Below are positions 1-62,607 of a stretch of DNA of 64,000 bases, one piece after another. How positions within the stretch are numbered: position 1 is the stretch's first letter; the number at the start of each line of letters is the position of its first letter. The notes under the pieces are model-generated. The model did no database searches. It was not told the DNA's origin and saw nothing but the letters and a program-made list of their open reading frames with translations. Both the position numbers and the translations under genes were made by a program. This DNA is from Mobula hypostoma. Taxonomy: Eukaryota. The stretch is taken from assembly GCF_963921235.1 (NCBI RefSeq), contig NC_086108.1, positions 9,920,001 to 9,984,000 of the forward strand, in the 5' to 3' direction.

Positions 1-1006
1 TTCCAGTTTTCCATTGTTCTGTTGGGTGGTTTAATTAAGGCACATGATTCTCATTTGGGCAGGCAGATAAATACCTCTGAGGACCGGGGCTTGGCTGCTT
101 GATTGTTTCTGTCAAAGCCCCCTGTCTGAATCCCTTCTTGGCCCCTTCCTCCTGAAGCCTTGCCGTGCCTGAACCCTTGCCTCGCCTGCAACCTTTGCTT
201 GCACCGCTGTTAAGTTCAACTGCTGGAGCAAGATAAGGAATTGTCTATTGTTGTTTTGAACTGTCTCTGTGTCCACTCCTTCGCTAGGTAGGTCCGGCCG
301 TTTGCTGCTACCTTGAGTGGAGATCTGTCTCTCAGTCTTCTGCTATTGAGTCTTGGCCCTACATCCCGTTTCCAAGGAGGTGTCCCGGATCTGTGTTCCA
401 TGTTCCTTTCTCCCTCGACCACCGAGGCTCTGTGCTCCTGTCTCCCTTGACCACCAAGGCTCTGCACTCCTGTCTCCCTCGACCAAGTCAAGGCTTCATG
501 TTCTCATCCTGTCCATGTGCCTCGCCCAGCCCAGGAGTAATTCACCCAGCCTGGTGCTAGGGTTCCCTCGTCCTGTCCAGGAGTACCTTGTCCTGTCCAA
601 GTCACGTCCAAGTACCTCGCCCTGTCCAAGTCAAGGCTTTGTGCTCTCGTCCTGTCCATGTGCCTCGTCCTGTGCAGGAGTTCCACATCCTGTTCTGTAA
701 CCACATCCAGTTCTGTAGCCATGTCTCGTCCTAGCCTAGTTCCGGTGTCTGAGCCTGAGTAAAGAACCAGGTTCTGGGTTCTTGTCCAGTCTCTAGCTCG
801 GAGTCCAAGCCCAGGCTCCTAGTTCTCAGTTCCTTGTCCTGGTCCCGCTTGCCTAGCCAATGTCCTAGCCCAAGACTATGTTCTTGTCCCAGCTCCTAGT
901 CTGCATCCAGTCACGTCCCTAACTCTAGTCTCTAGTCAGGTCCTGTTCCTAGTAGTTCAGTGTCTGTCTTGCATCTGGGTCCGCTCCCAACGCCCCTCTT
1001 ATGACT
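1..1006 (+). mobile_element. LTR (solo or 3' LTR, 5' end outside window) related to the 47643-50155 element
   Basis: 500-1005 matches the reverse complement of the LTRs at 47643 and 49089 (cagtgtctgtcttgcatctgggtcc...ttatgac end, same internal short tandem repeats). TATA-like gataaata at ~66. Confidence 0.75.
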
Positions 1007-2066: not shown

Positions 2067-2070
2067 TTTT

Positions 2071-2716: not shown

Positions 2717-5700
2717 CTTAAATGCATCTGTTTTAATGCTAGGAGCATTGTAAGAAAGGTGGATGAGCTTAGAGCATGGATTGATACCTGGAAATATGAT
2801 GCTGTAGCTATTAGTGAAACATGGTTGTAGGAGGGGTGTGATTGGCAACTGAATATTCCAGGATTTCGTTGCTTCAGGTGTGATAGAATAGGAGGGGCAA
2901 GAGGGGGAGGTGTTGCATTGCTTGTCAGAGAAAATATTACAGCGGTGCTTTGGCAGGATAGATTAGAGGGCTTGTCTAGGGAGGCTATTTGGGTTGGATT
3001 GAGGAATGAGAAAGGTGTAGTAATATTTATAGGGGTGTAATATAGACCACCTAATGGGGAGCGAGAATCGGAGAAGCAAACTTGTAAGGAGATAGCAGAC
3101 ATTTGTAGTAAGCACAAGGTTGTGATTGTGGGAGATTTTAATTTTCCACACATAGACTGGGAAGCCCATTCTGTAAAAGTGCTGGATGGTTTGGAGTTTG
3201 TAAAATGTGTGCAAGATAGTTTTTTGCAGCAATACATAGAGGTAGCAACTAGAGAAGGGGCAGTGTTGGATCTCCTGTTAGGGAATGAGACAGGGCAGGT
3301 GATGGAGGTATGTGTTGGGGAGCACTTCGGGTCCAGTGATCACAATACCATTAGTTTCAATATAATTATGGAGAAGGATAGGACTGGACCCAGGGTTGAG
3401 ATTTTTGATTGGAGAAAGGCTAACTTTGAGGAAATGCGAAAGGATTTAGAAGGAGTGGATTGGGACAATTTGTTTTATGGGAAGGATGTAATAGACAAAT
3501 GGAGGTCATTTAAAGGTGAAATTTTGAGGGTACAGAATCTTTATGTTCCTGTTAGGTTGAAAGGAAAGGTTAAAAGTTTGAAAGAGCCATAGTTTTCAAG
3601 GAATATTGGAAATTTGGTTTGGAAAAAGAGAGAGATCTACAATATATATAGGCAGCATGGAGTAAATGAGGTACTCGAGGAATATAAAGAATGTAAAAAG
3701 AATCTTAAGAAAGAGATTAGAAAAGCTAAAAGAAGATATGAGGTTGCTTTGGCAAGTAAGGTGAAAATAAATCCAAAGGGTTTCTATGGTTATATTAGTA
3801 GCAAAAGGACAGTGAGGGATAAAATTGGTCCCTTAGAGAATCAGAGTGGACAGCTATGTGCGGAGCCAAAAGAGATGGGGGAGATTTTGACAATTTCTTT
3901 TCTTCGGTATTCACTAAGGAGAAGGTTATTGAATTCTGTAAGGTAAGGGAAAAAAGTAGGGTAGTTATGGAAACTACGATGATTAAAGAAGAGGAAGTAC
4001 TGGCACTTTTAAGGAATATAAAAGTGGTTAAGTCTCCGGGTCCTGACAGGATATTCCCTAGGACCTTGAGGGAAGTTAGTGTGGAAATAGCAGGGGCTCT
4101 GACAGAAATATTTCAAATGTCATTAGAAACGGGGATGGTGCCGGAGGATTGGCGTATTGCTCATGTGGTTCCATTGTTTAAAAAGGGTTCTAAGAGTTAT
4201 CCTGGCAATTATCGGCCTGTAAGTTTGATGTGAGTGGTGGGTAAATTAATGGAAAGTATTCTTAGAGATGGTATATACAATTATCTGGATAGACAGGGTC
4301 TGATTAGGAACAGTCAACATGGATTTGTACTTGGAAATTCATGTTTGACAAATCTTACTGAATTTTTTGAAGAGGTTACTAGGAAAATTGATGATGGTAA
4401 AGCAGTGGATGTTGTCTATATGGACTTCAGTAAGGCCTTTGACAAGGTTCCACACGGAAGGTTAGCTAGTAAGGTTCAATCGTTAGGTATTAATATTGAA
4501 GTAGTAAAATGGATTCAACAGTGGTTGGATGGGAGATGCCAGAGAGTAGTGGTGGATAACTGTTTGTCAGGTTGGAGGCCAGTGACTAGTGGTGTGCCTC
4601 AGGGATCTGTACTGGGTCCAATGTTGTTTGTCACATTAGTGATCTGGATGATGGGGTGGTAAATTGGATGAGTAAGTATGCAGATGATACTAAGATAGGT
4701 GGCGTTGTGGATAATGAAGTAGGTTTTCAAAGCTTACAGAGAGATTTGGGCCAGTTAGGAGAATGGGCTGAAAGATGGCAGATGGAGTTTAATGCTGATA
4801 AGTGTGAGGTGCTACATTTAGATTAGATTATGAGGACACTCAGTCCTCGTTCATTGTCATTTGGAAATGCATGCATTAAAAAATGACATAATGTTCCTCC
4901 AGAATGATATCACAAGAAACACAGGACAAACCAAGACTAAAACTGACAAAACCAGATAATTATAACAATTAGTTACAACAGTGCAAAGCAATACCATAAT
5001 TTGATAAAGAGCAGACCATGGGCACGGTAAAAAAAAAATCTCAAAGTCCCGATAGCCTCATCATCTCACACAGATGGTAGAAGGGGAAACTCTCCCTGCC
5101 ATGAACCTCCAAGCGCTGCAAACTTGCCGATGCAGCACCATTGGAAGCACCTGACCGCAGCGGACTCTTGAGTCCGTCCAAAAACTTCGAGCCTCCGACC
5201 AGCTCCTCAGACACAGCCTCTCCGAGCACCATCCTCTGCCAAGCGCTTTGACCCCACCCCGGCCGCAAGCAACATGCAAAGCCGAGGACTTGGGGCCTTC
5301 CCTTCCGGAGACTCTGGATCACACAGTAGCAGCAGCAGCGAAGCAGGCATTTCAGAAGTTTCACCAGATGTTCCTCTGTGCTCTCACGTCCACCTCCATC
5401 AAATCAGGATTGTGCACGGCACCCTACTTGACCACCAGAGTGGCTACTGCGAGCTGCGTCACATCGCCACCTTCTCCTCCCTCTTGATAGGACTAATCAA
5501 AACAGGACATACATGGTAAACGGTAGGACATTGAGGAATGCAGTAGAACAGAGGGATCTAGGAATAATGGTGCATAGTTCCCTGAAGGTGGAATCTCATG
5601 TGCATAGGGTGGTGAAGAAAGCTTTTGGTATGCTGACCTTTATAAATCAGAGCGTTGAGTAGAGGAGTTGGGATGTAATGCTAAAATTGTACAAGACATT

Positions 5701-6150
5701 GGTGAGGCCAAATTTGGAGTATTGTGCACAGTTCTGGTCACTGAATTATAGGAAAGATGTCAACAAAATGGAGAGAGTACACAGGAGATTTACTAGAATG
5801 TTACCTGGGTTTCAGCACCTAAGTTACAGAGAAAGATTGAACAAGTTAGTCTTTATTCTTTGGAGAGTAAAAGGTTGAGGGGGGACTTGATAGAGATATT
5901 TAAAATTATGAGGGGGATAGGCAGAGTTGACGTGGATAGGCTTTTTTCATTGAGTGTGGGGGAGATTCAAACAAAAGGACATGAGTTGAGAGTTAGGGGG
6001 CAAAAGTTTAGGAGTAATATGAGAGGGAACTTCTTTACTCAGAGAATGGTAGCTGTGTGGAATGAGCTTCCAGTAGAGGCACGTTTGATTTTGTCATTTA
6101 AAAAAAATTGGATAGGTATATGGACAGGAAAGGAACCGAGGGTTATGGGC
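2717..6150 (+). pseudogene. CR1 ORF2 endonuclease/reverse transcriptase, disrupted
   Basis: [48 protein letters not shown] and YADD motifs with stops, frameshifts and an insertion at 4819-5483. Confidence 0.95.
4819..5483 (-). mobile_element. Non-coding non-autonomous retroposon nested in CR1 (same family as 10517-11132)
   Basis: Interrupts the CR1 at ctacatt/ttgatagg. Minus strand starts ggaggagaaggtggcg, ends aaatgacaatgaa...(taatc)n, and is collinear with 10517-11132. Confidence 0.8.
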
Positions 6151-8174: not shown

Positions 8175-8905
8175 CTTGAGATTAATTCAGGCAGTTTCAG
8201 GAAAAATAAATACAATGGAATTTATTAAAAAACTCTACATAAAGACTGACGAACAATTGATGTGCTGAAGAAGATAAGTTATGCAAATAACAAATAAATA
8301 ATATTGAGAACATGAGTTGTAGAATCCTTGGAAGTGAGTCTGCAGGATGTGTAATCAGTTCTGAGTTGTGGTGAGTGAAGTTATCCACACTGGTTCAGGA
8401 GCCTGATGGTTGTGGGGTAATAACTGTTCCTGAACCTGGTGGTGTGGGACCTGAGGCTCATTGTGGTGAGTGAAGTTACCCACACTGGTTCAGGAGCCTG
8501 ATGGTTGTGGGGTAATAACTGTTCCTGAACCTGGTGGTGTGGGACCTGAGGCTCATTGTGATGAGTGAAGTTACCCACACTGGTTCAGGAGCCTGATGGT
8601 TGTGGGGTAATAACTGTTCCTGAACCTGGTGGTGTGGGACCTGAGGCTCATTGTGGTGAGTGAAGTTATCCCCCCTGGTTCAGGAGCCTGATGGTTGTGG
8701 GGTAATAACTGTTCCTGAACCTGGTGGTGTGGGACCTGAGGCTCCTGTATCTCCAGTCCGATGGTAGTAGCAAGAAGAGAGCATGGTCTGGATGGTGGGG
8801 TGGGGGGAGGGTGTGGTGGTGTCCTAAGTTATTGGATGCTGCTTTCTTGTGGTAAAGCTGCTTGTAAATGTGCTCTGTAGTAGGGAGGGCTTTGCCTTTT
8901 ATGAC
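8175..8905 (-). mobile_element. Rex1/Babar- or L2-type LINE 3' fragment carrying a tandem array
   Basis: HALFLLLPSDWRYRSLRSHTTRFRNSYYPTTIRLLN C-terminal motif. Confidence 0.75.
8366..8744 (-). repeat. 95-bp tandem array, 4 units
   Basis: tggttcaggagcc recurs at 8391, 8486, 8581 and 8676. Confidence 0.95.
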
Positions 8906-15859: not shown

Positions 15860-18505
15860 TACAGTCATAGAGTACAGCACAGAAGCAGGCCCTTCAGCCC
15901 ATCTAGTCCATTCTGAACTACTATTGCACCTAGTCCTATCAACCTGCACCCAACCATAAACCTTCATACCCCTCACATCCCCGTACCTATCCAAAGTTGC
16001 AATCAAACCCACATCTCGTTCCGCACTCTCACTACTGTCTGAGTGAAGAGATTTCTCCTCATGTTCCCCTTAAATATTTCACCTTTCACCCTAAAACTAT
16101 GACAAGAAAAACGCCTTTTCCAGTGCCCGCAGGAGAGTCCAGAATAAACTGTGTAAAATGCAAGATGCCTGGCTGAGCGCCAAGGCAGATGAAATACAGG
16201 GATACGCTGACGGAAATGACCTGAAATGATTCTATGAAGCTCTCAACACTCTCTATGGACCTCAGTCTCTTGGGAGCTCCCCCCTCCTGAGTATAGATGG
16301 TACAACTCTCATTACAGAGAAGGCTCAGATCATGCAGAGATGGGCTGAACACTTTGAAGCCGTCCTCAATCAATCACCATCTATTAACGATGAGGTGATA
16401 GACAGGATTCCCCAGGTCAACATCAACAGCGCCATGGATGACCCACCAGTAATAGCCGAAGTCACGAAAGCTGTCAGCCATCTATCCAGTGGCAAAGCCC
16501 CAGGGGCAGACGCCATACCTGCAGAGATCTACAAAGCCAGTGGTCCCGTACTTATAGAGAAGCTCACTGAGTTGTTCCAGTCTTTTTGGAAGCAAGGATC
16601 CATTCCTCAGGAACTTAAAGCTGCATCCATCGTACACCTCTACAAGAGGAAGGGTAATCAACAAGTATGTGACAACCAGCGAGGAATCTCGCTGCTCTCC
16701 ATTGCAGGAAAAACCCTTGCAAGAGTCCTACTAAATCGTCTGGTCACTCATCTGGAGCTGGGCCTGTTGCCAGAGTTGCAGTGTGGCTTTCGCAAAGGTC
16801 GTGGGACTATTGACATGATTTTTGCCGCGCGCCAACTTAAGGAGAAGTGTCAGGAGCAGAATCGCGAACTCTAAGCAACTTTTGTTGACTTCACAAAAGC
16901 CTTCGACACTGTCTGCCAACAAGGCATGTGGAGGATCATGTCAACGTTCGGCTGCCCCACCAAATTCATTCAGGTGTTATGCCAGTTCCATGATGGCATG
17001 ATGGCCAGAGTGCTGGACGGCAGAGAATCCTCTGAGACATTCCCAGTCACCAATGGTGTCAAACAGGGCTGTGTGCTCGCACCCACACTGTTCAGCATGA
17101 TGTTTTCTGCCATGCTGAATGATGCCTTCCAGGATAGTGATGCTGGAATCAGCCTCAAGTACAGAGTGGATGGGAAGCTCTTCAACCTGAGGAGACTTCA
17201 AGCCATTACCAAAGTGAAGGAGACTGTTCTGAGAGACTTCCTCTTTGCCGATGACTGCGCCCTGTATGCTGGCTCGGAGCCAGAGATGCAAGTCAATATG
17301 AACAAATTCTCCACGGCTTGTGACAATTTTGGACTCACCATCAACATCAAAAAGACCGAAGTCACGCACCAGCCTGCCCCTCATGCACCGTACACAGAAC
17401 CCAAAATCACAGTCAAAGGACAGAAACTGCAGGCAGTGGACCAGTTTACTTACCTTGGCAGCACCCTCTCCCGAGCAGTGACTATTGATACAGAAGTTAA
17501 CTGCAGAATAGCAAATGCAAGTTCTGCTTTCGGTAGACTGCGCTCCACTGTATGGGAACGTCGAGGAATCAGTCCAGCAACAAAACTGAAGGTCTACAGA
17601 GCCGTGGTACTCACTACCCTCCTGTATGCCTGTGAAACGTGGACTGTGTATGGAAGGCATGCAAGACAGCTCAACCATTTCCACATGACTTGTCTTTGCA
17701 GAATATTAGGCATCAGATGGCAAGACAAAGTACCAGACACTGAAGTTCTCTCTAGAGCAAGTCTGCCATCAGTCCACACGCTGCTGATGAGAGCACAGAC
17801 CCGGTGGGCAGGTCATGTCATCCACATGCTGGACGAGCGCATACCCAAGCAGCTCCTTTTTGTGGAACTCTCTGCTTGAAGACGCTCGCATGGAGGGCAG
17901 AAGAAACGTTACAAAGACACACTAATGGCCTCCCTGAAGTCATTTGACATAGACATGACCTCCTGGGAAATGCTGGCACAAAACCGCCCTGCCTGGCGCG
18001 GTCTCATCCACAAGGGCCGTCAGGCACATTGCTGAAACACAACGTGAGCGCGAGCTGCGCAAGTACAGAGCCACCAGCGCAACAACTGCAGTGCCTACAC
18101 ATGTCTGCCCAACATGTGCCAGGACATTCGGTGCCTGAATTGGCCTGACCAGTCATCTTCGGACACACCGCATCCAGTCTCAAAGTGACTAATGTTGTCG
18201 AGGTCTTCATCGACGACAACGGACGAACCATCATGACCTCTAGTTCTAGTCTCATCCAACTTCAGTGGAAAAAGCCTGCTTGCATTTACCCTATCTATAC
18301 ACCTATCTATAATTTTGTATACCTCTATTAAATCTCCCCTCGTACTCCTACGCTCCAGGAAATAGAGTCCTAACTTATTCAATTTTTCCCAATATCTCAG
18401 GTCCTCCAGTCCCAACAATATCCTTGTAAATTTTTCTCTGTACTCTTTCAACCTTATTTACATCTTTCCTGTAGGTAGTTGGCCAAACCTGCACACAATA
18501 CTCCT
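15860..18505 (-). mobile_element. CR1 3' fragment split by an RTE insertion (15860-16103 and 18233-18505)
   Basis: cacctttcaccctaaaactatgac continues as ctctagttctag after the RTE; RGDLIEVYKI on the minus strand. Confidence 0.85.
16104..18232 (+). mobile_element. RTE-clade LINE, 5'-truncated, with a few stops
   Basis: KAPGADAIPAE, QCGFRKGRGTIDMIF, GVKQGCVLAPTLF, LFADD, a C-terminal CPTC...HLRTH zinc finger, and TSD ATGAC (16099-16103, 18233-18237). Confidence 0.95.
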
Positions 18506-29948: not shown

Positions 29949-32900
29949 AAACATAGGAACATAGGAAACCTACAGCACATTACGGACCCTTTGGACCACA
30001 ATGTTGTGTCGGCCATGTAACCTACTCTAGAAACTGTCTAGAATCTCTCTACCGCATAGCCCTCTATTTTCCTAAGCTCCATGTTCCTATCTAAGAGTCT
30101 CTTAAAAGACCCTATTGCATCCGCCTTCACCACTGTCACTGGCAGTGCATTCCATGTATCCACCACTCTTTGTGTAAAAAACTTAGCCCTGACTTCCTCC
30201 TTGTATCTACTTCCAAGCACCTTAAAACTATGTCCTCTTGTGTTAGCTATTTCAGCCCTGGGAAAAAGCCTCTGATCTACACGATCAATGCCTCTCATCA
30301 TCTTGTACACCTCTATCAGGTCACCTCTCATCTTCCATCGCTCCAAGGAGAGAGGGCCAAGTTCACTCAATATATTGTTAAGTGCGTCCAGGATGGATTC
30401 CTGTCACAGTATGTGGACAGGCTGACTAGGGGGAATGCCATACTAGATCTAGTACTAGGTAATGAACTGGGTCAGCTCACAGGTCTCTCAGTGGGTGAGC
30501 ATCTGAGGGACAGTGACCACCGCTCCCTGGCCTTTAGTATTATCATGGAAAAGGATAGAATCAGAGAGGACAGGAAAATTTTTAATTGGGGAAGGGCAAA
30601 TTATGAGGCTATAAGGCTAGAACTTGCAGGTGTGAATTGGGATGATGTTTTTGCAGGGAAATGTACTATGGACATGTGGTCGGTGTTTAACATAATGTAA
30701 CATCTCTTGCAGGATGTTAGGGATAAATTTGTCCCAGTGAGGAAGATAACGAATAGTAGGGTGAAGGAACCATGGGTGACAAGTGAGGTGGAAAATCTAG
30801 TCAGGTGGAAGAAGGCAGCATACATGAGGTTTAGGAAGCAAGGATCAGATGGGTCAATTGAGGAATATAGGGAGCAAGAAAGGAGCTTAAGAAGGGGCTG
30901 AGAAGAGCAAGAAGGGGGCATGAGAAGGCCTTGGCGAATAGGGTAAAGGAAAACCCCAAGGCATTCTTCAATTATGTGAAGAACAAAAGGATGACAGGAG
31001 TGAAGGTAGGACTGATTAGAGATAAAGGTGGGAAGATGTGCCTGGAGGCTGTGGAAGTGAGCGAGGTCCTCAATGAATATTTCTGTTCGGTATTCACCAA
31101 TGAGAGGGAACTTGATGATGGTGAGGACAATATGAGTGAGGTTGATGTTCTGGAGCATGTTGGTATTAAGGGAGAGGAGGTGTTGGAGTTGTTAAAATAC
31201 ATTAGGACGGATAAGTCCCCGGGGCCTAACGGAATAGTCCCCAGGCTGCTCCACGAGGTGAGGGAAGAGATTGCCAAGCCTCTGGCTAGGATCTTCATGT
31301 CCTCGTTGTCCACAGGAATGGTACCGGAGGATTGGAGGGAGGCGAATGTTGTCCCCTTGTTCAAAAAAGGTAGTAGGGATAACCTGGGTAATTATAGACC
31401 AGTGAGCCTTACGTCTGTGGTGGGAAAGCTGTTGGAAAAGATTCTTAGAGATAGGATCTATGGGCATTTAGAGAATCATGGTCTGATCAGGGACAATCAG
31501 CATGGCTTTGTGAAGGACAGATCATGTCTAACAAGCCTGATAGAGTCCTTTGAGGAGGTGACCAGGCATATAGATGAGGGTAGTGCAGTGGATGTGATCT
31601 ATATGGATTTTAGTAAGACATTTGACAAGGTTCCATATGGTAGGCTTATTCAGAAAGTCAGAAGGCATGGAATCCAGGGAAGTTTGGCCAGGTGGATTCA
31701 GAACTGGCTTGCCTGCAGAAGGCAGAGGGTGGTGGTGGAGGGAGTACATGCAGATTGGAGGATTGTGACTAGTGGTGTCCCACAAGGATCTGTTCTGGGA
31801 CCTCTACTTTTCGTGATTTTTATTAATGACCTGGATGTGGGGGTAGAAGGGTGGGTTGGCAAGTTTGCAGATGATACAAAGGTTGGTGGTGTTGTAGATA
31901 GTGTAGAGGATTGTTGAAGATTGCAGAGAGATATTGATAGGATGCAGAACTGGGCTGAGAAGTTTGCAGATGAAGTTCAACCTGGAGAAGTGTGAGGTGG
32001 TACACTTCGGAAGGACAAACCCCAAGGCAGAGTACAGAGTAAATGGCAGGATACTTGGTAGTGTGGAGGAGCAGAGGGATCTGGGGGTACATGTCCACAT
32101 ATCCTTGAAATTTGCCTCACAGGTGGATAAGGTAGTTAAGAAAGCCTATAGCGTGTTAGCTTTCATAAGTCGAGAGATAGAGCTTAAGAGTCGCGATGTA
32201 ATTATGCAGCTCTGTAAAACTCTGGTTAGGCCACACTTGCAGTACTGTGTCCAGTTCTGGTCGCCTCACTATAGGAAGGATGTGGAAGTATTGGAAAGGG
32301 TACAGAGGAGATTTACCAGGATGCTTCCTGGTTTAGAGAGTATGGATTATGATCAGAGATTAAGGGAGCTAGGGCTTTACTCTTTGGGGAGAAGGAGGAT
32401 GAAAGGAGACATGATAGAGGTGTACAAGATAATAAGAGGAATAGATAGAGTGGATAGCCAGCGCCCCTTCCCCAGAGCACCACTGCTTAATGCAAGAGGA
32501 CATGGCTTTAAGGTGAGGGGTGGGAAGTTCAAGGGGGATATTAGAGGAAGGTTTTTTACTCAGAGAGTGGTTGGTGCGTAGAATGCACTGCCTGAGTCAG
32601 TGGTGGAGGCAGATACACCAGTGAAGTTTAAGAGATTACTAGACAGGTATATGGAGGAATTTAAGGTGGGGGGTTATATGGGAAGCAGGGTCTGAGGGTC
32701 GGCACAACATTGTGGGCTGAAGGGCCTGTACTGTACTGTACTATTCTATGTTCTATGGTCTATGTTCTATGTATTCTCATAAGGCATGCTCTCCAATTCA
32801 GGCAACATCCTTGTAAATCTCCTCTCTATAGCATCCACATCTTTCCTGTAATGAGGTGACCAGAACTGAGCACAATACTCTAAGTGGTGTCTGACTAAGG

Positions 32901-44851: not shown

Positions 44852-46468
44852 ATAGAACATAGAACATAGAATAGTACAGCACAGTACAGGCCCTTCATCC
44901 CACAATGTAGTGCCGACCCTCAAACCCTGCCACCCATATAAGCCCCCAACTTAAATTTCTCCATATACCTGTCTAGTAGTCTCTTAAATTTCACTAGTGT
45001 ATCTGCCTCCACCACTGACTCAGGTAGTGCATTCCAGCACTAACCACTCTCTGAGTAAAAAATCTTCCTTTAATATCCTCCTTGAACTTCCCACCCCTTA
45101 CCTTAAAGCCATGTCCTCTTGTATTGAGCAGTGGTGCCCTGGGGAAGAGGCGCTGGCTATCCACTCTATCTATTCCTCTTATTACCTTGTACACCTCTAT
45201 CATGTCTCCCCTCATCCTCCTTCTCTCCAAAGAGTAAAGCCCTAGCTCCCTTAATCTCTGCATACACTCTAAACCAGGCAGCATTCTGGTAAATCTTCTC
45301 TGTACCCTTTCCAATACTTCCACATCCTTCTTATAGTCAGGCGACCAGAACTGGACACAGTACTCCAAGTGTGGCCTAACCAGAGTTTTATAGAGCTGCA
45401 TCATTACATCGTGACTCTTAAACTCTATCCCTCGACTTATGAAAGCTAACACCCCATAAGCTTTCTTAACTACCCTTGTGAGGCAACTTTCAGGGATCTG
45501 TGGACATGTATCCCCAGATCCCTCTGCTCCTCCACACTACCAAGTATCCTGCCATTTACTTTGTACTCTGCCTTGGAGTTTGTCCTTCCAAAGTGTACCA
45601 CCTCACACTTCTCTGGGTTGAACTCCATCTGCCACATCTCAGCCCACTTCTGCATCCTATCAATGTCTCTCTGCAATCTTTGACAATCCTCTACACTATC
45701 TACAACACCACCAACCTTTGTGTCGTCTGTAAACTTGCCAACCCACCCTTCTACCCCCACATCCAGGTCGATAATAAAAATCACGAAAAGTAGAGGTCCC
45801 AGAACAGATCCTTGTGAGACACACTAGTCACAACCCTCCAATCTGAATGTACTCCCTCCACCACCACCCTCTGCCTTCTGTAGGCAAGCCAATTCTGAAT
45901 CCACCTGACCAAACTTCCCTGGATCCCATGCCTTCTGACTTTCTGAATAAGCGTACCGTGTGGAACCTTGTCAAATGCCTTACTAAAATCCATATAGATC
46001 ACATCCACTGCACTACCCTCATCTATATGCCTGGTCACCTCCTCAAAGAACTCTATCAGGCTTGTTAGACACGATCTGCCCTTCACAAAGCCATGTTGAC
46101 TGTCCCTGATCAGACCATGATTCTCTAAATGCCCAGAGATCCTACCTCTAAGAATCTTTTCCAACAGCTTTCCCACTACAGATGTAAGGCTCACTGGTCT
46201 ATAATTACCCGGACTATCCCTACTACCTTTTTTGAACAAGGGGACAACATTCGCCTCCCTCCAATCCTCCGGTACCATTCCCGTGGACAACGAGGACATA
46301 AAGATCCTAGCCAGAGGCTCAGCAATCTCTTCCCTCGCCTCGTGGAGCAGCCTGGGGAATATTCGGTCAGGCCCCGGGGACTTATCCGTCCTAATGTATT
46401 TTAACAACTCCAACACCTCCTCTCCCTTAATATCAACATGCTCCAGAACATCAACCTCACTCATATTG
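44852..46468 (-). mobile_element. Young 5'-truncated CR1, same subfamily as 30371-32771
   Basis: Near-identical peptides ([32 protein letters not shown]). Confidence 0.95.
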
Positions 46469-47642
46469 TATGTGGTATTTAAGGTAGACACTTCGGTTTA
46501 TTTTGTAATATGATTCTAACTTATTGTGGGGCGCAACATATTCTAATTCATGTGTAGTCTTGTTAACTTATTGGGTAATGAAAGATGGTATGCCCTGGTG
46601 CCTAATAAACAGGGCTCATCACTCTCAGGGAGCTGCCAGGCATTCACACTGAAAGTAGCATGGAGCTATTTATTGTCTTTTCTAGTAGAAATCTTTTTGC
46701 AAATATTGGCAGTTTTGTTTACACTAGTTTCACTAATTGTTGTAAGTTGGATTGCTGACACATCAAGTAAACACCCTTGCTCAAAATTGCTAAGTGACTC
46801 CAGCCATCTATTTCTTTGGTCAAAACCCATGTACATAATACTGTACTTCCCCTCCATTACAACAAGGACTTCTCTTCAAAGTACTTCAATGGTTTAACAA
46901 ATTGGGGATGTTCTGAAAGGGAAATGCAAGAGGTTATCGAAAAGCAAATCCTAACTTCTCTTATTAATTTATTTATTCTAATGTTGAAAACTTCTGTTCA
47001 TTTTTCCAATCAACGGACTTGTCTGAACAGACTTTTTTTTCAAAGATTATAAAACCCTTAGACCATCTATAACTGCCAAAGTCTCTTAATTGAGATTGTG
47101 TGGGACTGAGAAGGTCTTCTTTACCATTAATCAGAAATCGTCTGCAGCTGCTGCAACACTTTGGAGATCAATAGGTGGCTGGGACACTGGGCGGCTTTGT
47201 CTGTTGTCCCAACGTAGTGCGTGACACTCCAAAACAGCACTGCTGTCCGAGCCTGAAACCTGGCCATATACCCTCCAAACGAAGACTAAACCTATCACCC
47301 ACTCAGGAGCTGTGGGAGGTGCGGGCAAGGAGTCACACAATTTGTTTCACCCATTGCAACAGTCTGGTGGTGTTCAGAGACAGAGTGTTAAAAAGACGTG
47401 GGAGCTGAAAGAGAAAGAGAGAGACAGAGAGAAAAAAGAAGGAGCGGGAGAGACACAGAGACAGAGAGGAGAGAGAGAGTGAGGCAGAGAGAGAGAGACA
47501 GAGAGTGAGAGAGAGAGGAGTTATAGGAAGAGAGCATTTGGGGGAAAGGGAAGAAGGTACAAGAGCCTCAGGACTCACACCACCAGGTTAAAGAACAATT
47601 ACTTCCCCTCAGCCATCAGGCTCTTGAACCAAAGGGGATAAC

Positions 47643-50155
47643 TGTTATAAGGGGGGGGGCATTGATGGTGGACCCAAATGCAAGACACAGACACTGAAGT
47701 ATGAGGAACAGGATAAGGTGTATCAAGAAAGCAAGGGGAGTCAGGAAGAAATGACGCTGGACATGGACACAGGCCCTGGACGAGACAAGGACACCGGGCC
47801 TGGGTTAGGACTAAGACTAGGAAAGCGGGACCAGGACAAGGAACTTGGAACTAGGAGCCTGGGCTAGGACTTCTAGCCAGAGACTGGACAGAGACCCGGA
47901 ACATGGGTCTTGACTCGGGCTCAGGACCCCGGATCTAGGCGAGGACAAGACGTGGCTACAGGACTGGATGTGGAACTCTTGCACAGGACGAGGCACATGG
48001 ACAGGACAAGAACACAAAGCCTTGACTTGGACAGGACAAGTTTCTTGGACTAGGCTTGGACAAGGTGAGGTACTTGGACGTGACTTGGACTAGACAAGGT
48101 TCTTGGACGTGGCTGGGACTAGACAAGGTTCTTGGACGTGGCTGGGACTAGACGAGGTTCTTGGACGTGGCTGGGACTAGACGAGGTTCTTGGACGTGGC
48201 TGGGACTAGACGAGGTTCCTGGACGTGGCTGGGACTAGACGAGGTTCTTGGACGTGGCTGGGACTAGACGAGGTTCCTGGACGTAGCTGGGACTAGACGA
48301 GGTTCCTGGACGTGGCTTTGATTAGACTAGGTTCTTGGACATGGCTAGGACTAGGGACTCCTGGACTGGAAGAGAGACTCCTGGACAGGATGAGGGATCT
48401 CCAGCACTGGGCTGGGCAAAGTACTCCTGGGCTGGGCGAGATACTCCTCGGCTGGGCGCGGTACTCCAGCGCAGGACGAGGAACTCCAGGGCAGGACAAG
48501 GAACTCCAGGGCAGGACGAGGAACTCCAGGGTAGGACGAAGAACTTCAGGGCAGAACGTGTAACTCCAGAGCAGGACTTGGCTCTTGGACTCGGCTCGGT
48601 TAGGCCCTTGGGTACAGAGCTGGGACTCCTTCTAGGACACAGGACCGGGACCCTTTCTAGGACGCAGGGCCGAGGATACTTGCTGAGGTAAACTGCTGAG
48701 GAAACCGCCGAGGAAACTGTCAGTGGTTCAGATGGGGAGGGGAAGGGAACAGTCCAGCAAAAGAAGCTGAATCTGGAAGCTATTTATGTAGCCAGCCCAA
48801 AACTAGAAACAGGTGCCTCGATTAAGGAGCCCAATGGAACCGGGGAAAACAGGGAAAACCCAGAATATGGATTGATGGACCAGACCGTGAACCGGAATGC
48901 AGACTAAATGGACCGGATCATGACAGTATCCACCTCCCCTCCATGGGAGCATCTTGGTGGCCCAAAAAGCTTTCCCAGACTATGGATGACATGGGCAGGT
49001 GGGGGGGCATTCAACAGGAGGGAACCCGGGATGGCGAGAGTTAAACGACAGTGTCTGTGTCTCTGGGTCCATATTTGATGGACTGCTCTGTTATAAGGGG
49101 GCTATTGATGGTGGACCCAAATGCAAGACACAGACACTGAAATACTAGGAACAGGACAAGGTTTATCGAGAAAGCAAGGGAAGTCAGGAAGAAACGACGC
49201 TGGACATGGACACAGGCCCTGGGCAAGACAAGGACACCGGGCCTGGGCTAGGAATAAGACTAGGAAAGCGGGACCAGGACAAGGAACTTGGAACTAGGAG
49301 GCTGGGCTAGGATTCCGAGCCAGAGACCGGGAACCTGGGTCTTGACTCGGGTTTGGACCCTGGATCTAGGCGAGGACAAGACGTGGCTACTGGACTGGAT
49401 GTGGCTAGGCTACAGGACTGGACATGGAAATCCTGCATAGGACAAAGCACATGGACAGGATGAGAACACAAAGCCTGGACTAGTACAGGATGAGGTTCTT
49501 GGACTAGGCTTGGACTAGACTAGGTACTTGGATGTGGTTAGGACTAGACAAGGTACTTGGACGTGGCTTGGACTAGATGAGGTTCTTGGACTAGGGACTC
49601 CTGGACTGGATGAGGGAACTCCTGGACTGGACGAGGGAAGTCCAGCATAGGACGAGGAATCTCCAGCACCGGGCTGGGTGAGAAACTCCTGGGCTGGGCG
49701 AGGGAACTCCTGGACTGGACGAGGGAAGTCCAGCATAGGACGAGGAATCTCCAGCACTGGGCTGGGCGAGGTACTCCTGGGCTGGGCGAGGTACTCCAGC
49801 GCAGGACTTTGCTCTTGCACTAGGCTCAGTTAGGCCCTTGGGTATGGAGCCGGGACTCCTTCTTGGAGTGCAGGGCCGGGACCCTTTCTAGTACGCAGGG
49901 CCGGGATGACTGCCAAGTATATTTGCCGAGGTGACTGCTGAGGAAACCGTCAGGGATTCCGATGGGGAGGGGAAGGGAACAGTCCAGCAAAAGAAGCTGA
50001 ATCCCGAAGCTATTTATGTAGCCAGCCCAAAACTAGAATCAGGTGCTTCGATTAAGGAGCCCAACGGAACCGGGGAAAACAGGGAAAACCCGAAATACAG
50101 ATCGATGTACCAGACTGTGAACTGGAATGCGGACTTCACGGACCGGACCATGACA
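47643..50155 (-). mobile_element. Miniature non-autonomous Ty3/Gypsy (Tf1/sushi-like) LTR retrotransposon
   Basis: Two LTRs (47643-48925 and 49089-50155) with TG...CA ends, a 163-bp internal region, PPT GGAGGGGAGGTGG, and TSD ATAAC at 47638-47642 and 50156-50160. Confidence 0.9.
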
Positions 50156-52807
50156 ATAACTACACTTTCCCACAATAAATGGATTCAATTTTAAGGACAC
50201 TTCAGCTCATGTTGTTGATAATTATTGCTTATTTATTTATTATTATTATTATTATTACTTTCCTTCTGTATTTGCACACTTTGCTGCCTTCTGCACTCTG
50301 ATTGAGCATTCAGGTTGGGTGGTCTTTCATTGTTTCTGTTATGGTTACTATTCTATAGATTTATTGAGTATGCCTACAAGGAAATGAACCTCAGGGTTGT
50401 ATATGGTAACATATACGTACTTTGATAATAAATTTGCTTTGAAGTTTGAGCTTTGAGTCTGTGTATGTGCATATGTGCTTGTGTGTGTGGGAGAGAGAGA
50501 GAGAGAATGAGAGAGAGAGAGAGAAGGCAGGGAAAGAATAAGAGAGTATTCCTGAAACAGAACAGGAAGATGGAGATGTGACACAAAGTGTTCACAGCTC
50601 CCTCTCATTCTGTCCCCATCACTTCAGCATCTCTCTTCACCTCCTATTCCCTCCTGTCCTTGATTACGGAAGACCAGAGGGAATTCATTCTCTGCAGCTT
50701 GCTCCACACTCTCACCACCCTCTAAACGAAGATGTTTTCCCTCAGGTTTCCCCTTAAATATTTCACCTTTCACCCTAAGCATCTGACCAAGAATTCTATC
50801 TCATCCAACAGTGGGAAAAACCTTTCAAATTCAGCAGCTTTCAAGGAGATCCCCCACCTCAGCTCCTAATTCACATTCTTCACCACCTCCCAATCACGGT
50901 GTCTGTTCTGAGTCCCTCTGGCAATCTGCGTGTTGCTCCAGAAGCCAACATCTGCAGTCACCTATGCCTCCAGTGTCTGCCACTGATGGGGGCACCAATC
51001 TAGCGCACAATATTCCATTGTATCTCATGTAATTCTGCGATTTGGCCCCAAGGTCAACAATAGTTTAGAAAGAATAGAATGGAATAGGATTTTATTGTCA
51101 TCACCCAAGACAACGAGATTGTGGTGCTACCCCTGTCCATGTAAAACAGATGCTTACAACACACGTGATACGACTTAGGTAATTAAAAAGAAAATTCCCA
51201 TATTTACTCGTAACAAGTGACTTCGATAGACCATAATGCTCATAGCCATTGGCAAGCTGGAGTGTAGCATTATTCAGCTGCACAACAGCCCTGGGGAAGA
51301 AGCTGTTTTTCAGTCTAACTGCCTTTGCTAAGATGTTTCTGTATCTCCTACCAAATGGCGGGAGATTGAACAGATAGTGTCTGGGATGGGATGGGATGCA
51401 TCTTTAATAATGTTGCGAGCTGCCGTAGGCATTCAGAGTTGTAGATTGTCTCCAAGTCTGGTAGTTGAGTCTCAGTGATGTGCCGAGCCGTCCTAATCAC
51501 CCGTTGGAGAGCTTTGTGATCTGTCTTGCTGCAGCTAGAGTCCCACACCATCATTCCATATGTCAGTATGCTCTCTGTCACTCAACGGTCAAAGTTAGCC
51601 AGCAATATTTGGGGCAGATGAGCACCCCAGGTGCATCATAGAAATGCTGTGAACTTCATTTCATAGACACCAGAGATTCTGCAGATGCTGGAAATCCAGA
51701 GCAACACACACAAATTGCCGGAAGACTCAGCAGGCCAGGCAGCCTTCAAGGAAAGTCAACATTTTGGGCTGAGACCCTTCACTGGGACAATTTATTTCAG
51801 AGTTTCAGCAACTGCACTATTTTTGTTGTTCAGAGAAATGCAAGTCTTTTCTTGTCCATTGTAACAGTCATGTTTAGGCTTCAGTTTGACTCCACAAGTA
51901 ACACTGGCATCCACATCAATCGTATATAGTTTCTTTGAACTTTGAACTTTAATAGAGTTCTGTTGACTGATCCATTTTGCCTTTAAGCAAGAGGAGGCTT
52001 CCACCTGTGATCCACACAAAGCAACCCCTGCACCTAAAAGAGTTCCAAGAGCCCATTTATTGGAGGGACAGGAACCCATCTCAAGTCCCCTGAATTCCTT
52101 CTGTCTCTGGCACATAGTACCTGAACATATTGCCTTGCCTTCTGCAATAAGGATTGAAGTAGTGATTTCAGCTGAAAGGCAAAAGGTTATGTTCTCAGCC
52201 CTGATGAAGGGTCTCTGCCTGAAACATTGACTGTTTATTCCTCTCAGATGCTGCCTGAGCTGCTGAGCTCCTCCAACATTCTGTGTGTGTTACTGTGGAT
52301 TATCGCGTCTGCAGAATCACCCCTGCTTAGGGTCATATCCTGTATTCTCATGTTCTTCATACTTCATCCTTTACAACGTAAGACACTGCACACTCTCAGT
52401 TCTGATGCAGGTTCTTCACTGGCATGTTGACCATCCCTCTGCCTTCTGAGGTCTTGCTCGACCCATTCAGTGCCTCCTTTAGCTCCAGAATCCAGTATCT
52501 GCAGTGTTTTGTGTCTCCACATGGACCAAGTCCCCTTCACAGACAAATTCCTACTCCCTGGTCTAAAGATAAGGGAGATGGTTATTGACTTTAGGAGAAC
52601 TTGCACCATTGCACATCCTTCTTTACACCGGCGGCACAGCAGTGGATACTGAGTAGTTTCAAACTCCTGGGAGTGCATAATCTCGCACAACCTCTCATGC
52701 TCCCAGAACACCAACTCACCAGCTCCTCTGCTTTCTGAGGAGGCAGGAAAGAGCCGGACTATGCCCATCAATATGCATGTCGTTCTGAAGATGTGTACAG
52801 GGTGTAT

Positions 52808-54996: not shown

Positions 54997-55350
54997 TTGC
55001 ATTTGCACAGTTTGTTGCCTTCTGTACGCTGGTTGAGTGCCCTAGTTGGTCTGGTCTTTCATTGAGGTTGATGGGGAGAGAGAGGCAGTTGTGCATCCTG
55101 AGGCTTGTTTGTCAGGAAGTCCAACATCCAGTTGCTCTGAGTTGTCTTTAGACCAACGAGGACGAGCTTGTTCATCGAAGTCTGTGGGGCAGTGGTGCTG
55201 AATGCCAAGCTGAAATCCAGAAGCAGCATTCTGACATAGCTTTGCCCAGTTATAAGGAGCTTTGCCTCAAGAAAACGGCATCCATCACCAAGGACCCCCA
55301 CCTTCCGGTCATGTTCTCTTCCCCCTGCTGCTATCGGGCAAGAGGTACGG

Positions 55351-55820
55351 GAGCCTCAGGTCCCACACCACCAGGTTCAGGAACAGTTATTACCCCACAA
55401 CCATCAGGCTCCTGAACCAGTGTGGATAACTTCACTCCCCACAATGAGTCTCAGGTCCCATACCACCAGGTTCAGGAACAGTTATCACCCCACAACCATC
55501 AGGCTCCTGAACCAATGTGGATAACTTCACTCACCACAATGAGTCTCAGGTCCCACACCATCAGGTTCAGGAACAGTTATTACCCCACAACCATCAGGCT
55601 CCTGAACCAGTGTGGATAATTTCACTCACCACAATGAGCCTCAGGTCCCACACCACCAGGTTCAGGAACAGCTTATTATCCGACAACCATCAGGCTCCTG
55701 AACCAGTGTGGATAACTTCACTCACTACAATGAGCCTCAGGTCCCACACCACCAGGTTCAGGAACAGTTATTACCCCACAACCATCAGTATCCTGAACCA
55801 ACATGGATGACTTCACTCAC
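55351..55820 (+). repeat. 95-bp tandem array, 5 units, within a LINE 3' fragment (55250-56070)
   Basis: Unit is the reverse complement of the 8366-8744 unit. Confidence 0.95.
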
Positions 55821-56264
55821 TTCAACACTGAACTGATTCCATAACCTATGGACCCACTTTTAAGAACTCTACAACTCATATTCTCAGTATTATTGATTGG
55901 TTGAATTTTCACAGTTTATCTTCTTTTGCACATTGGTAGTTTGTCAGTCTTTGTGTGCCTTTTTTCATTGATTCTATAGTATTTTTGTTCTGCTGTGTAT
56001 GCCCACGAGAAAGAGAATTGCAGGGTAGTATATGGTGACGTTCCTGTACTTTGATAATAAATTTATTTCAGGATTTAAGATTGTTTATTGTCATTTCCAA
56101 TACACAAGAGTAAAGGAGAACAACATAATTGTTACTCTGGATCCAATGTAGCACAAAAAATCACAATAAAAAAACACAATAAATATAATTATTTATGTAT
56201 CTTATACACATGGATTGATCGAATGTCTATAAAGTGACACTAGGCACAGGCGTGTCTGTACATA

Positions 56265-58560: not shown

Positions 58561-61459
58561 GTAAAGAAACATTTAAATTAAGTAGTAAATAGCAAAAAAT
58601 ATTGAGGTAGTGTTCATGGGTTCAGTGTCCATTCCGAAATCCGATGGCAGAGGGGAAGAAGCTGTTCCTGAATCGTCGAGTGTCTTCAGGCTTCAGTTCC
58701 TCCTCCCTGATGACAGCAATGTGAAGTGGGCATGTCCTGGGTGATGGAGGTCCATAATAATGGATGCCACCTTCTTTGGGACATCGCCTTTTGCCGGTAT
58801 CCTCGATCCTCAGACGGCTTGCAGGATTAATGTTGGGAGGAGAGGTTAGTGGGGAGCGATGAATGGACAAGGGAACCACAGAGGAAAGTGGAGAGAGGGG
58901 GAGGTGGCAGGATCCCTTTGGAGACGGTGGAAGTTGCGGAGGATGATGTGTTGGGTACGGAGGCACATGGGGTGCTAGGTAAGGGCAAGAGGAACTCCAT
59001 CGCTGTTATATTAAGGCTTTGCTATTTGAAGATGTCCTCGTTGCTGGGCAGGCTGTTGCCTATGAAGCAGCTGGCTGAGTTTACAACTTTCTGTTGTAAT
59101 ACAGCACAGGAACAGGACTTTTGGCCCACCTCATTCCTGCTGATCGAATCTTCTGTGTAGGTCCATCTAGCTGTGCTGGGACCATAGCCCTCCATACCCC
59201 TCCCATCCATATTCCTATCCAAACTTCTCTTAAATGTTAAAATCGAGCTGATATGCACTACTTGTGCTAGCAGCTCGTTCCACACTCTCACCACCCTCTG
59301 AGTGACGAAGATTCCCCTCATGTTCCCATTAAACTTTTCACCTTTCACCCCTAACCCATGAACTCTGGTTGTCGTCCCACCCAACCTCAGTGGAAAAAGC
59401 CTGCTTGCATTTACCCTATCTATACCCCTCATAATTTTGTACACTTCATTAAGATGTCTCTTCAGTGGTTTTGGAGGTACAACATGATAACAGGCCCTCC
59501 CAGGGATCATGCACCCAATGACCAATTAACTAAATAACCCATAAAATCATAGGATCATAAGACATAGGTGCAGAATTAGGCTATCTGGCCCATCGAGTCT
59601 GCTTCGCCACTTCATGATGGCTGATCCTGGATCCCACTCAATCCCAAACACCTGCCTTCTCACCGTATCCTTTGATGCCCTGACCAATCAGGAAACTATC
59701 AAACTTTCACTTTAAATATACCCACGGACTTGGCCTCTACTGCAGTCCGTGGCAGAGCATTCCACAGATTCACTACTCTCAGGCTGAAAAAAAAAATTCC
59801 TCCTTACCTCTGTTCTAAAAGGTCACCCCTCAGTTTTGAGGCTTTGCTCTCTAGTTCTGGATACCACCACCATAGGAAACATCCTCTCCACATCCAGCCT
59901 ATCTAGTCTCAGTCCTGCACTCGAGCCATCTCCCATCCTGGCACTCCTTCTCTGCCAGCTCTCCCGCACCCCTCCCGCGGTGCTCCACCCTCGTCATTCC
60001 CAACATCTCTGCTCCCGCCAGATTTACAAAGTCACCCTCGGCTCCTCATTGACGAATTCAGTACTGTGCAAAAGTCTCAGACACCCAAGCTGTATATGTA
60101 CATGCCTAGACTTTTGCAATTTAATCCCCTTCTGAACTACATGCTAATTTCTGAATCTATGCTAAGTGAACTATATGCTAATATTTGAAGCAATGAGGAA
60201 TTATTACTTCAGAACCATCACAGCAAGAAACAACAATGTTCATAAATCTCCTGAAAACAATATAGTACCTTCCATATTTCAAGGTTGGTTCTTGACTATT
60301 GTTTTATTGAAGGTTTTCTCCCTACCCCACTACAGTATAAAAAATAGCATAGGGTGCAGAATACCCATCAGATGACACTGCACAATGGGGTAAGCAGGCT
60401 ATTGTCTCTCACAAGTTAGCTCTGTCACCTTGTGTTTCAGAATGAGATTTAATATCACTGGCATGCTCTTTCCCGTCCGTGTGCAGCCTTCCTCCAGGTG
60501 CCCAGGTTTTCTCCCACAATCCAAAGGCATGCTGGTGAGAAGGTTAATTGGTCAGTGTAAATTGTCCCCTGATTAGGCTGGGGTTAAATTGGTGGGAGAA
60601 GCTGGAAGAGCTGGGAGATCCTGTTCCACACCATATCTCTCAATAATGTGAAAAAGCTGTAATGACTTCCATTTATAACGCACCAGTGTGGAAATGTAAT
60701 GAAAACACAGCAGGACAGCTGCACCCAGCAAACTCTCATTTGCAGCTATGAAATAAATATACCCTCTGCACGGTTGATGGATAAGTGTTAGACCAGAACC
60801 CCGGGGAAATTGGCACCATTGGCGCACTTTCCAGACCGGTGCATTATTCATTTTACTTTCTTTTGATTGAGATACAGTGTGGAATAGGCCCTTCCAGACC
60901 TCTGAGCTGCACAGCAGCCCACCAATTTAACCTCAGCTTAATCATGGGATAATTTATAATGACCAAAAGCTCAATGGTTCAACAGTTTCATTTCATACCA
61001 GAGAATGTATACAATATGCCACCTGAAATTTTCACTCTCCGCAGACATCCTCGAAAACAGAAGAAAACCCCCCAAAGAATGAATGGCAGGAAAGAGACAT
61101 GAACCCTAAAACCCCTTTCTCCTCCCATGCACAAGCAGATTCAACATTCCCCCCTCTCCCTCCCCCTCCCCCCACTTATTCCAGCATAATGCATCAGCAT
61201 TCCCACCTGCACACTATGCGAGCAACAGCAAAGCCCCCGAAGAGAGACCATGGTCTACAGTCCATCAAAAACTAACTGTTCATACCAACATTTCAACGTC
61301 CCACAGGCTCTCCCTCTCACCAACAAGGGAGAGAACAGGTATCGCTCCTTCCACAGCAAAAGGGGAGACAACGGTCGCTATTTCACTGTTACAGTCAGTC
61401 TGAAGCGTTGCTTTTTTATTTTGAGATCTCTGACTTGAGAATTAGCAAATCAATGACCA

Positions 61460-62607
61460 AGTGCAGAGCCCTCTGCAAGCCCCTCTCGCTGAACTCGACG
61501 TTCCGAGTGCAGAGCCCTCTGCAAGCCCCTCTCGCTGAACTCGACGTTCCGAGTGTAGGGCCCTCTGCAAGCCCCTCTCCCTGAACTCGACGTTCCGAGT
61601 ACAGGGCCCTCTGCAAGCCCCTCTCGCTGAACTCGACGTTCCGAGTGTAGGGCCCTCTGCAAGCCCCTCTCGCTGAACTCGACGTCCCGAGTACAGGGCC
61701 CTCTGCAATCCACTCTCGCTGAACTCGACGTTCCGAGTACAGGGCCCTCTGCAAGCCCCTCTCGCTGAACTCGACGTTCCGAGTGCAGGGCCCTCTGCAA
61801 TCCACTCTCGCTGAACTCGACGTTCCGAGTGTAGGGCCCTCTGCAAGCCCCTCTCGCTGAACTCGACGTCCCGAGTACAGGGCCCTCTGCAAGCCCCTCT
61901 CGCTGAACTCGACGTCCCGAGTACAGGGCCCTCTGCAATCCACTCTCGCTGAACTCGACGTTCCGAGTGCAGGGCCCTCTGCAATCCACTCTCGCTGAAC
62001 TCGACGTTCCGAGTGCAGGGCCCTCTGCAAGCCCCTCTCGCTGAACTCGACGTTCCGAGTACAGGGCCCTCTGCAATCCACTCTCGCTGAACTCGACGTT
62101 CCGAGTACAGGGCCCTCTGCAAGCCCCTCTCGCTGAACTCGACGTTCCGAGTACAGGGCCCTCTGCAATCCACTCTCGCTGAACTCGACGTTCCGAGTGC
62201 AGGGCCCTCTGCAAGCCCCTCTCGCTGAACTCGACGTTCCGAGTACAGGGCCCTCTGCAATCCACTCTCGCTGAACTCGACGTTCCGAGTGCAGGGCCCT
62301 CTGCAAGCCCCTCTCGCTGAACTCGACGTTCCGAGTGCAGGGCCCTCTGCAAGCCCCTCTCGCTGAACTCGACGTTCCGAGGGCAGGGCCCTCTGCAAGC
62401 CCCTCTCGCTGAACTCGACGTTCCGAGTGCAGGGCCCTCTGCAATCCACTCTCGCTGAACTCGACGTTCCGAGTGCAGGGCCCTCTGCAAGCCCCTCTCG
62501 CTGAACTCGATGTTCCGAGTGCAGGGCCCTCTGCAATCCACTCTCGCTGAACTCGACGTTCCGAGTGCAGGGCCCTATGCAAGCCCCTCTCCCTGAACTC
62601 GACGTTC
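61460..62607. repeat. 46-bp CpG-rich minisatellite, ~25 units
   Basis: Unit gagtgcagggccctctgcaagcccctctcgctgaactcgacgttcc; period 46 (ttcc at 61501 and 61547). Confidence 0.97.

What the first reader, a model, noticed from the sequence alone, without database searches (positions are those of the whole stretch)
49049..50018. tRNA-independent self-priming signature plus U5-leader stem in the mini-LTR element
Seen on the minus strand: the 10 nt right after the 5' LTR are GAGCAGTCCA (49088-49079), with no TGG tRNA-type PBS. About 30 nt downstream of a TATA-like CATAAATA (50018-50011) lies TGGACTGTTC (49986-49977), which pairs with all 10 nt (one G-U). The PBS is also bracketed by inverted repeats cagtgtctgtgtct/agacacagacactg (14 bp) and tgggtcca/tggaccca (8 bp). 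Established: Tf1/sushi-group elements prime from their own mRNA 5' end. Inference: this element loops out an exceptionally long (~890 nt), repeat-filled R-U5.
Basis: partly seen in the sequence, partly recalled or inferred. Interest (0 to 1): 0.7.

Follow-up and report, generated by a model that had tools for sequence, protein, structure and literature searches.

The report
Self-priming protein-free fish LTR retrotransposon
This old, protein-free jumping gene has a primer site that pairs with a short stretch just behind its own promoter-like signal, so it likely started copying itself with the first bases of its own RNA instead of a host tRNA, a trick already described for yeast Tf1 and its fish relatives.

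Summary
Observation confirmed. A 2.5-kb non-coding LTR element (minus strand 50155-47643, 5-bp target duplication, LTRs 1067/1283 nt, 163-nt interior) has a 10-nt primer site whose only full partner in the LTR lies 24 nt behind a TATA-like motif (4 of 1000 shuffles give any partner, 0 give one there). In contigs of four sequencing runs most related copies have a Watson-Crick pair where this copy has G-U, and many pair one base more (11 nt, as in Tf1). A U5-leader stem is predicted at near certainty and leaves the primer site in a loop. Against or open: the start site is unmapped, no compensatory change was seen, the third duplex of the Tf1 'pretzel' is absent, and no coding partner was found, so the clade is inferred. 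The 889-nt loop is mostly repeat-expanded R, against 258-561 nt in related fish-like LTRs; longer, not a new mechanism. LTR divergence (K2P 0.09-0.16) marks an old copy. The scan noted a like element in this genome (e1-8034992) and a fungal one (e1-7502298). Verdict: real, new member of a known kind.

The parts
50156..50160 (-). left target-site duplication (GTTAT)
   Evidence: same 5-mer after the 3' LTR
49089..50155 (-). 5' LTR, 1067 nt, TG...CA
49988..50155 (-). predicted U3 (168 nt, 36% T)
   Evidence: boundary inferred from TATA position
50011..50018 (-). TATA-like motif CATAAATA, the only TATA-like match in the LTR
   Evidence: aligned with TATA-like motifs of related LTRs
49977..49987 (-). 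predicted self-primer (10 nt pair in this copy, 11 in many related copies); predicted 5' end of the RNA
   Evidence: start site inferred
49489..49906 (-). 20-, 21-, 25-, 29- and 88-nt tandem repeats that lengthen R; four octamers here and at ~49397 pair with the first 8 primer bases
49162..49167 (-). poly(A)-signal-like GATAAA, at the place of AATAAA in related LTR L006
   Evidence: role inferred
49126..49139 (-). U5 arm 1 (14 bp) of the U5-leader stem
49112..49119 (-). U5 arm 2 (8 bp) of the U5-leader stem
49079..49088 (-). primer-binding site, non-tRNA type (no TGG start), directly after the LTR
49064..49071 (-). leader arm pairing with U5 arm 2; overlaps an ATG at 49072-49070 that opens a 30-codon frame without database match
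49049..49062 (-). leader arm pairing with U5 arm 1
48926..49088 (-). whole interior, 163 nt, no gag/pol gene; ends in a purine-rich tract (~48943-48930)
47643..48925 (-). 3' LTR, 1283 nt, with the same TATA motif (48788-48781) and primer segment (48756-48747) and an 11-copy 29-nt array
47638..47642 (-). right target-site duplication (GTTAT)
1..1006 (+). related LTR of another subfamily or decayed copy, cut by the window start, no primer site behind it

Best explanation
The element is a protein-free LTR retrotransposon with two long LTRs and a 163-nt interior, whose primer site pairs with a segment behind a TATA-like motif in its own LTR, and it likely primed reverse transcription as Tf1 does, using proteins predicted to come from an autonomous Tf1/sushi-type partner. 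Steps: (shown) architecture, target duplication, complementarity, family conservation of both sites; (predicted) Pol II starts about 30 nt from the TATA at 49988-49986, so the RNA begins with the primer; (predicted by folding) U5 pairs with the leader and holds the primer site in a loop, so primer-PBS pairing makes a pseudoknot across ~890 nt of repeat-expanded R; (inferred from Tf1, PMC7175516) RNase H of the partner's reverse transcriptase cuts after the duplex and frees a 10-12-nt primer. This copy is old (LTR K2P 0.09-0.16) and probably inactive.
For: Unique, non-random complementarity at the expected distance from TATA. Contigs of 4 DNA-type runs: at + 49086 the other letter that turns G-U into A-U holds depth 318.7 of 318.6 (16 contigs), 794 of 840 (13), 110 of 143 (12), 152 of 184 (13); an extra paired base at the far end of the site appears as an inserted letter in 10, 7, 9 and 1 contigs and as a changed letter in 2, 5, 4 and 5 (40 of 224 variant rows shown). 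In 4 RNA-guessed runs no variant at 15% or more lies in 48737-48766, which holds the primer, while 48772-48782 has four (table complete). TATA-to-primer 66 nt differ by 4.5% between the two LTRs against 14% for the first 356 nt. The PBS is the best site for the primer in the transcript (-16.1 kcal/mol). U5-leader stem P 0.87-1.0. Four fish-like solo LTRs from metagenome contigs share the U5 motif and a TATA plus primer-like motif at the same spacing. Tf1 uses its first 11 bases (PMC7175516); self-priming is reported as common to Tf1/sushi elements of fungi and vertebrates.
Against: No start-site data. No compensatory pair change seen; in the stem one family variant keeps a pair as G-U (49112) and one breaks a pair (49062, 4407 of 5293 depth in X1). 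The third pretzel duplex is absent: segment after the primer with the U5 end -4.1 kcal/mol; best R partner of either LTR end no better than shuffles (25 and 19 of 40 as good). In the nested fold the primer is taken up by a local hairpin (unpaired 0.01-0.22 at six bases), and four repeat octamers bind its first 8 bases at -14.5 to -13.8 kcal/mol. No coding relative was found, so the clade is not shown.
Confidence: 0.8

Rival explanations
1. The primer comes from a host RNA (tRNA fragment or other small RNA) that happens to share the sequence; the LTR match is secondary.
For: No start-site mapping. Half-tRNA priming exists in other LTR groups (PMC6317226).
Against: The site lacks the TGG needed for a tRNA CCA end. 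It would leave unexplained a unique, conserved complement 24 nt behind TATA. From recall, not from a call: the base after an anticodon is a purine, which does not fit reading the primer as an anticodon arm. No tRNA library was on hand to test; Rfam gave no relevant match in 47000-51000.
Confidence: 0.05
2. Self-priming is real but the element descends from a non-chromovirus Gypsy lineage, or uses a reduced two-duplex fold unlike Tf1.
For: No protein link to Tf1/sushi; LTR end motifs do not separate Sushi from rGmr1 (PMC3601003 Table 3); third duplex absent; the scan noted other self-priming Gypsy groups in this genome (unchecked).
Against: Those other groups pair with the poly(A) region, whereas this one pairs at the post-TATA position as Tf1 does; T-rich U3 and poly(A) signal near the LTR end fit the Sushi LTR description; the unchecked note e1-8034992 files a like element with Tf1/sushi.
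Confidence: 0.12
3. The complementarity is chance or a by-product of the repeat-rich LTR, and has no role.
For: The LTR holds four octamers that match part of the site.
Against: 0 of 1000 shuffles and 12 of 21330 false sites reach the pairing at that position; related copies pair better than this one.
Confidence: 0.03

Closest known systems
Tf1/Tf2 of Schizosaccharomyces pombe, Tj1, Tosmo1-3, Tcry1 (self-primed Ty3/gypsy chromoviruses; passages of PMC7175516, PMC4600332, PMC10085805 read)
   Same: PBS directly after the LTR, complementary to 10-11 nt at the predicted RNA 5' end; LTR sequence pairs with the leader beside the PBS.
   Different: No coding capacity; LTRs of 1067-1283 nt against about 406-414 nt for Tcry1; only two of the three pretzel duplexes found; cleavage and priming not tested.
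Vertebrate Tf1/sushi (V-clade) elements such as sushi-ichi (Butler et al. 2001, not held, title and citing passages only; Sushi LTR model in PMC3601003)
   Same: Vertebrate host, T-rich U3, TATA early and poly(A) signal near the LTR 3' end, TGTYANR-type 5' end, predicted self-priming.
   Different: Non-autonomous, 163-nt interior, repeat-expanded R (Sushi training LTRs average 572 nt); no protein evidence for membership.
TRIM-type non-autonomous LTR retrotransposons (PMC6934838 passages)
   Same: Two terminal repeats around a short interior with PBS and polypurine tract; would move in trans.
   Different: TRIMs are defined there as under 1000 bp with 100-250-bp repeats and a tRNA-type PBS; this element is 2513 bp with LTRs over 1 kb and a self-complementary PBS.

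Membership tests
LTR retrotransposon (non-autonomous) | two direct LTRs with TG...CA ends, target-site duplication, PBS and polypurine tract, no coding genes | tested here: met
   (flanks join in an empty copy of the host repeat at 54434-54269)
Tf1/sushi self-priming group | PBS complementary to an LTR segment at the predicted RNA 5' end, no tRNA-type PBS | tested here: met
Tf1/sushi self-priming group | duplex between LTR (U5) and the sequence just downstream of the PBS | tested here: met
   (folding prediction only)
Tf1/sushi self-priming group | third pretzel duplex, between the sequence just upstream of the PBS and LTR sequence behind the primer | tested here: not met
   whether vertebrate members keep this duplex could not be read (Butler 2001 not held)
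Tf1/sushi self-priming group | transcription start at the first base of the primer | tested here: inconclusive
   only contigs; depth across the predicted start rises in 1 run, falls in 2, is flat in 1
Tf1/sushi self-priming group | RT/integrase phylogeny with Tf1 and sushi-ichi; chromodomain | tested here: inconclusive
   element has no pol; interior frames gave no match; no coding relative found in scans
Tf1/sushi self-priming group | covariation of primer and PBS across families | tested here: inconclusive
   only conservation seen; related LTRs L006, L007, L012, L014, L021 and 1-1006 have no PBS behind them
Tf1/sushi self-priming group | RNase H cleavage after the duplex to free the primer | not testable with these tools
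   needs biochemistry
TRIM | under 1000 bp, terminal repeats of 100-250 bp, tRNA-type PBS | tested here: not met

The most novel reading that the evidence does not exclude
An abundant family of protein-free vertebrate LTR elements self-primes with a stripped two-duplex pseudoknot that spans 0.9-1.1 kb of tandem repeats and lacks the third Tf1 duplex, possibly outside the chromoviruses; the U5-leader stem alone would then present the primer site, and the 90-160-nt interiors would define the minimal cis signals for self-priming and packaging in vertebrates.
Probability: 0.15. Interest if true: 0.45.

Novelty: new member of a known kind. Interest (0 to 1): 0.2.

Why it matters
Self-priming has been shown by experiment in yeast Tf1 and inferred for vertebrate relatives. 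A protein-free family with a tiny interior and a very long R shows how little sequence must be kept and that loop length seems tolerated, which makes it a handy natural test case. It does not change the known mechanism, and the scan has already noted a like element in the same genome, so the gain is modest.

Tried and rejected
No whole genome held, so copies could not be read one by one. No RNA holder listed on record. RNA-guessed contigs: depth across the predicted start (48739-48755 vs 48756-48772) is 279 vs 98, 116 vs 145, 75 vs 87 and 104 vs 96; no consistent step, U3 also covered, no listed piece bridges LTR end and leader with 31 letters each side; no verdict on start or expression. Pattern scans: viral 1, 0 and 9 hits, genome collection 3 hits; all 13 lie in phage or prokaryote-type sequence with no LTR context. 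Metagenome scan: 20 hits, of which 5 (L006, L007, L012, L014, L021; L006 and L012 are the same site) are LTR-like, 15 show no similarity beyond the motif; L021 failed my distance pattern and was left out of the R-U5 lengths, L012 was not measured. Idea that the interior is a gag start fused to a chromodomain tail (resemblance from recall): no match in Pfam, 1.84 billion representatives or the homologue search; kept only as a lead. Splicing out of the long loop: no GTRAG or AG/GTR donor in either R-U5. Decoy octamers as a family trait: 4 in the 5' LTR, 1 in the 3' LTR, 0 in LTR 1-1006, rejected. Rfam: 3 weak miRNA matches outside the element; no tRNA gene in the window. ViennaRNA cannot fold the pseudoknot; forcing primer-PBS as a nested fold costs 11.7 kcal/mol. 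Papers: Butler 2001 and Esnault and Levin 2015 not held; 8 searches listed no description of this family; Repbase/Dfam could not be searched, so it may be catalogued there.

Full report
Anatomy. On the minus strand the finding lies in a complete small LTR element: GTTAT target duplication at 50160-50156 and 47642-47638, 5' LTR 50155-49089 (1067 nt), interior 49088-48926 (163 nt), 3' LTR 48925-47643 (1283 nt). The two flanks join in an empty copy of an older repeat at 54434-54269, so this is a true insertion. The interior has no gene: its frames matched nothing in Pfam, among 1.84 billion representative proteins, or in the homologue search. The LTRs differ by K2P 0.157 over the first 356 nt and 0.093 over the last ~390 nt and carry different tandem arrays, so the copy is old. 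The window is animal-like DNA rich in broken LINEs; that the host is a ray comes from unchecked notes of the scan. No whole genome was held.

Observation. [quoted passage not shown] False primer sites from the window succeed in 12 of 21330 cases in that region and 19 of 1600 anywhere in the LTR. The U5-leader stem forms with pair probability 0.87-1.0 and leaves most of the primer site unpaired in a ~40-nt loop; among 6398 windows only the leader and opposite-strand U5 copies reach its energy. Primer-PBS pairing crosses this stem, so it is a pseudoknot that ViennaRNA cannot score.

Family evidence. Contigs of four DNA-type runs laid 4343, 4216, 4969 and 3058 pieces on 48690-49210. At the third base of the primer site most related copies carry the letter that makes a Watson-Crick pair (depth 318.7 of 318.6, 794 of 840, 110 of 143, 152 of 184; 12-16 contigs per run), and many pair one base further, to 11 nt (inserted letter in 10, 7, 9, 1 contigs; changed letter in 2, 5, 4, 5). 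Only 40 of 224 variant rows were shown there. In four RNA-guessed runs, with a complete table, no variant of 15% or more falls in 48737-48766, which holds the primer, while four fall in 48772-48782. This is conservation, not covariation. In the stem, one family variant keeps a pair as G-U and one breaks the end pair of the 14-bp arm. Five of 20 metagenome hits to the U5 motif are fish-like solo LTRs (four sites) with TATA and a primer-like motif at the same spacing; none has a primer site behind it.

Mechanism. Shown: architecture, complementarity, conservation. Predicted: transcription starts about 30 nt from the TATA motif, at 49988-49986 (spacing from general knowledge of Pol II promoters); U5 pairs with the leader; the RNA 5' end pairs with the looped primer site across 889 nt, mostly R lengthened by tandem repeats. 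Inferred from Tf1, where the first 11 bases pair with the PBS and RNase H cuts between bases 11 and 12 (PMC7175516 passage): a partner's reverse transcriptase frees the primer. Against: no start-site evidence (one search is inconclusive); the third duplex of the 'pretzel' (PMC10085805 and its preprint, passages) is absent; the primer has a local competing hairpin and four partial decoy sites; no splice donor shortens the loop.

Comparison. It works like Tf1, Tj1 and the Tf1/sushi group, for which self-priming is reported from fungi to vertebrates (PMC6317226, PMC4600332, passages). Membership is likely but not shown: there is no pol, no coding relative was found, and one defining RNA duplex was tested and not met, so I file it as a new member of the self-priming LTR kind rather than as a proven Tf1/sushi member. 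T-rich U3 (36%) and a poly(A)-like signal near the LTR end fit the Sushi LTR model, but the end motifs do not separate Sushi from rGmr1 (PMC3601003 passages). It fails the TRIM size definition (PMC6934838 passage). The loop is about two to four times that of related LTRs (889, 1105 and 899 nt against 557, 561 and 258). Butler et al. 2001, the paper on vertebrate members, was not held; I saw its title and citing passages only. No supplements were read.

Novelty and verdict. Eight paper searches listed no description of this family, but repeat libraries could not be searched. The scan noted a like non-coding self-priming element in this genome (e1-8034992, with a claim of covariation in coding relatives that I did not check) and one in a fungus (e1-7502298); other self-priming Gypsy notes in this genome (such as e1-8035212) concern pairing with the poly(A) region, a different layout. 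The feature is real and well supported, the mechanism is known, and the long repeat-filled loop is a quantitative twist. Interest 0.2; the bolder reading (two-duplex fold or a different clade) has probability about 0.15.

Noticed in passing
window 49717-49397 (minus): Four repeat octamers pair with the first 8 primer bases at -14.5 to -13.8 kcal/mol against -16.1 for the true site, but miss the primer's 3' end; not shared by the other LTRs (1 and 0 copies).
   Followed up: yes
window 49980-49930 (minus): The predicted primer folds locally with a partial PBS-like stretch about 50 nt downstream, which could compete with the long-range pairing.
   Followed up: partly
window 48900-49035, contigs: Joints such as 48903-48998, 48925-48998, 48928-49003 and 48899-49001 suggest family members with interiors 70-100 nt shorter still; most rest on one contig each with short sides.
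   Followed up: no
window 49104-49157: The U5 motif has by far the highest summed contig depth (up to 874,422 in X1 against 146-6132 in the interior), with many varied flanks at both LTR ends, which suggests very many solo LTRs; depth is no copy number.
   Followed up: partly
window 49072, run X12: Two contigs show an LTR end like that of LTR 1-1006 followed by the same 11-base primer site and a different spacer before the ATG; this speaks mildly against a different PBS for that subfamily.
   Followed up: partly
L006, L007, L012, L014, L021: Fish-like solo LTRs in metagenome contigs share the 18-nt U5 motif and the TATA-plus-primer-motif layout; R-U5 258-561 nt where measured.
   Followed up: partly
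window 49072-48920 (minus): One reading frame with one stop runs from the ATG across the purine tract into the 3' LTR; from recall it resembles a gag start joined to an integrase tail, but no search matched.
   Followed up: yes
window 47500-47642 and 50156-50460: The element sits inside an older dispersed repeat; an empty copy lies at 54434-54269, and 95-nt tandem arrays of its right part lie at 8380-8752 and 55292-55825.
   Followed up: partly
window 16230-17879, 30871-32581, 44994-46497: Broken non-LTR retrotransposon frames; the first two tested match RVT_1.
   Followed up: partly
window 1007-2070 and 61450-62600: Tandem arrays with units of roughly 40-45 nt, seen by eye.
   Followed up: no
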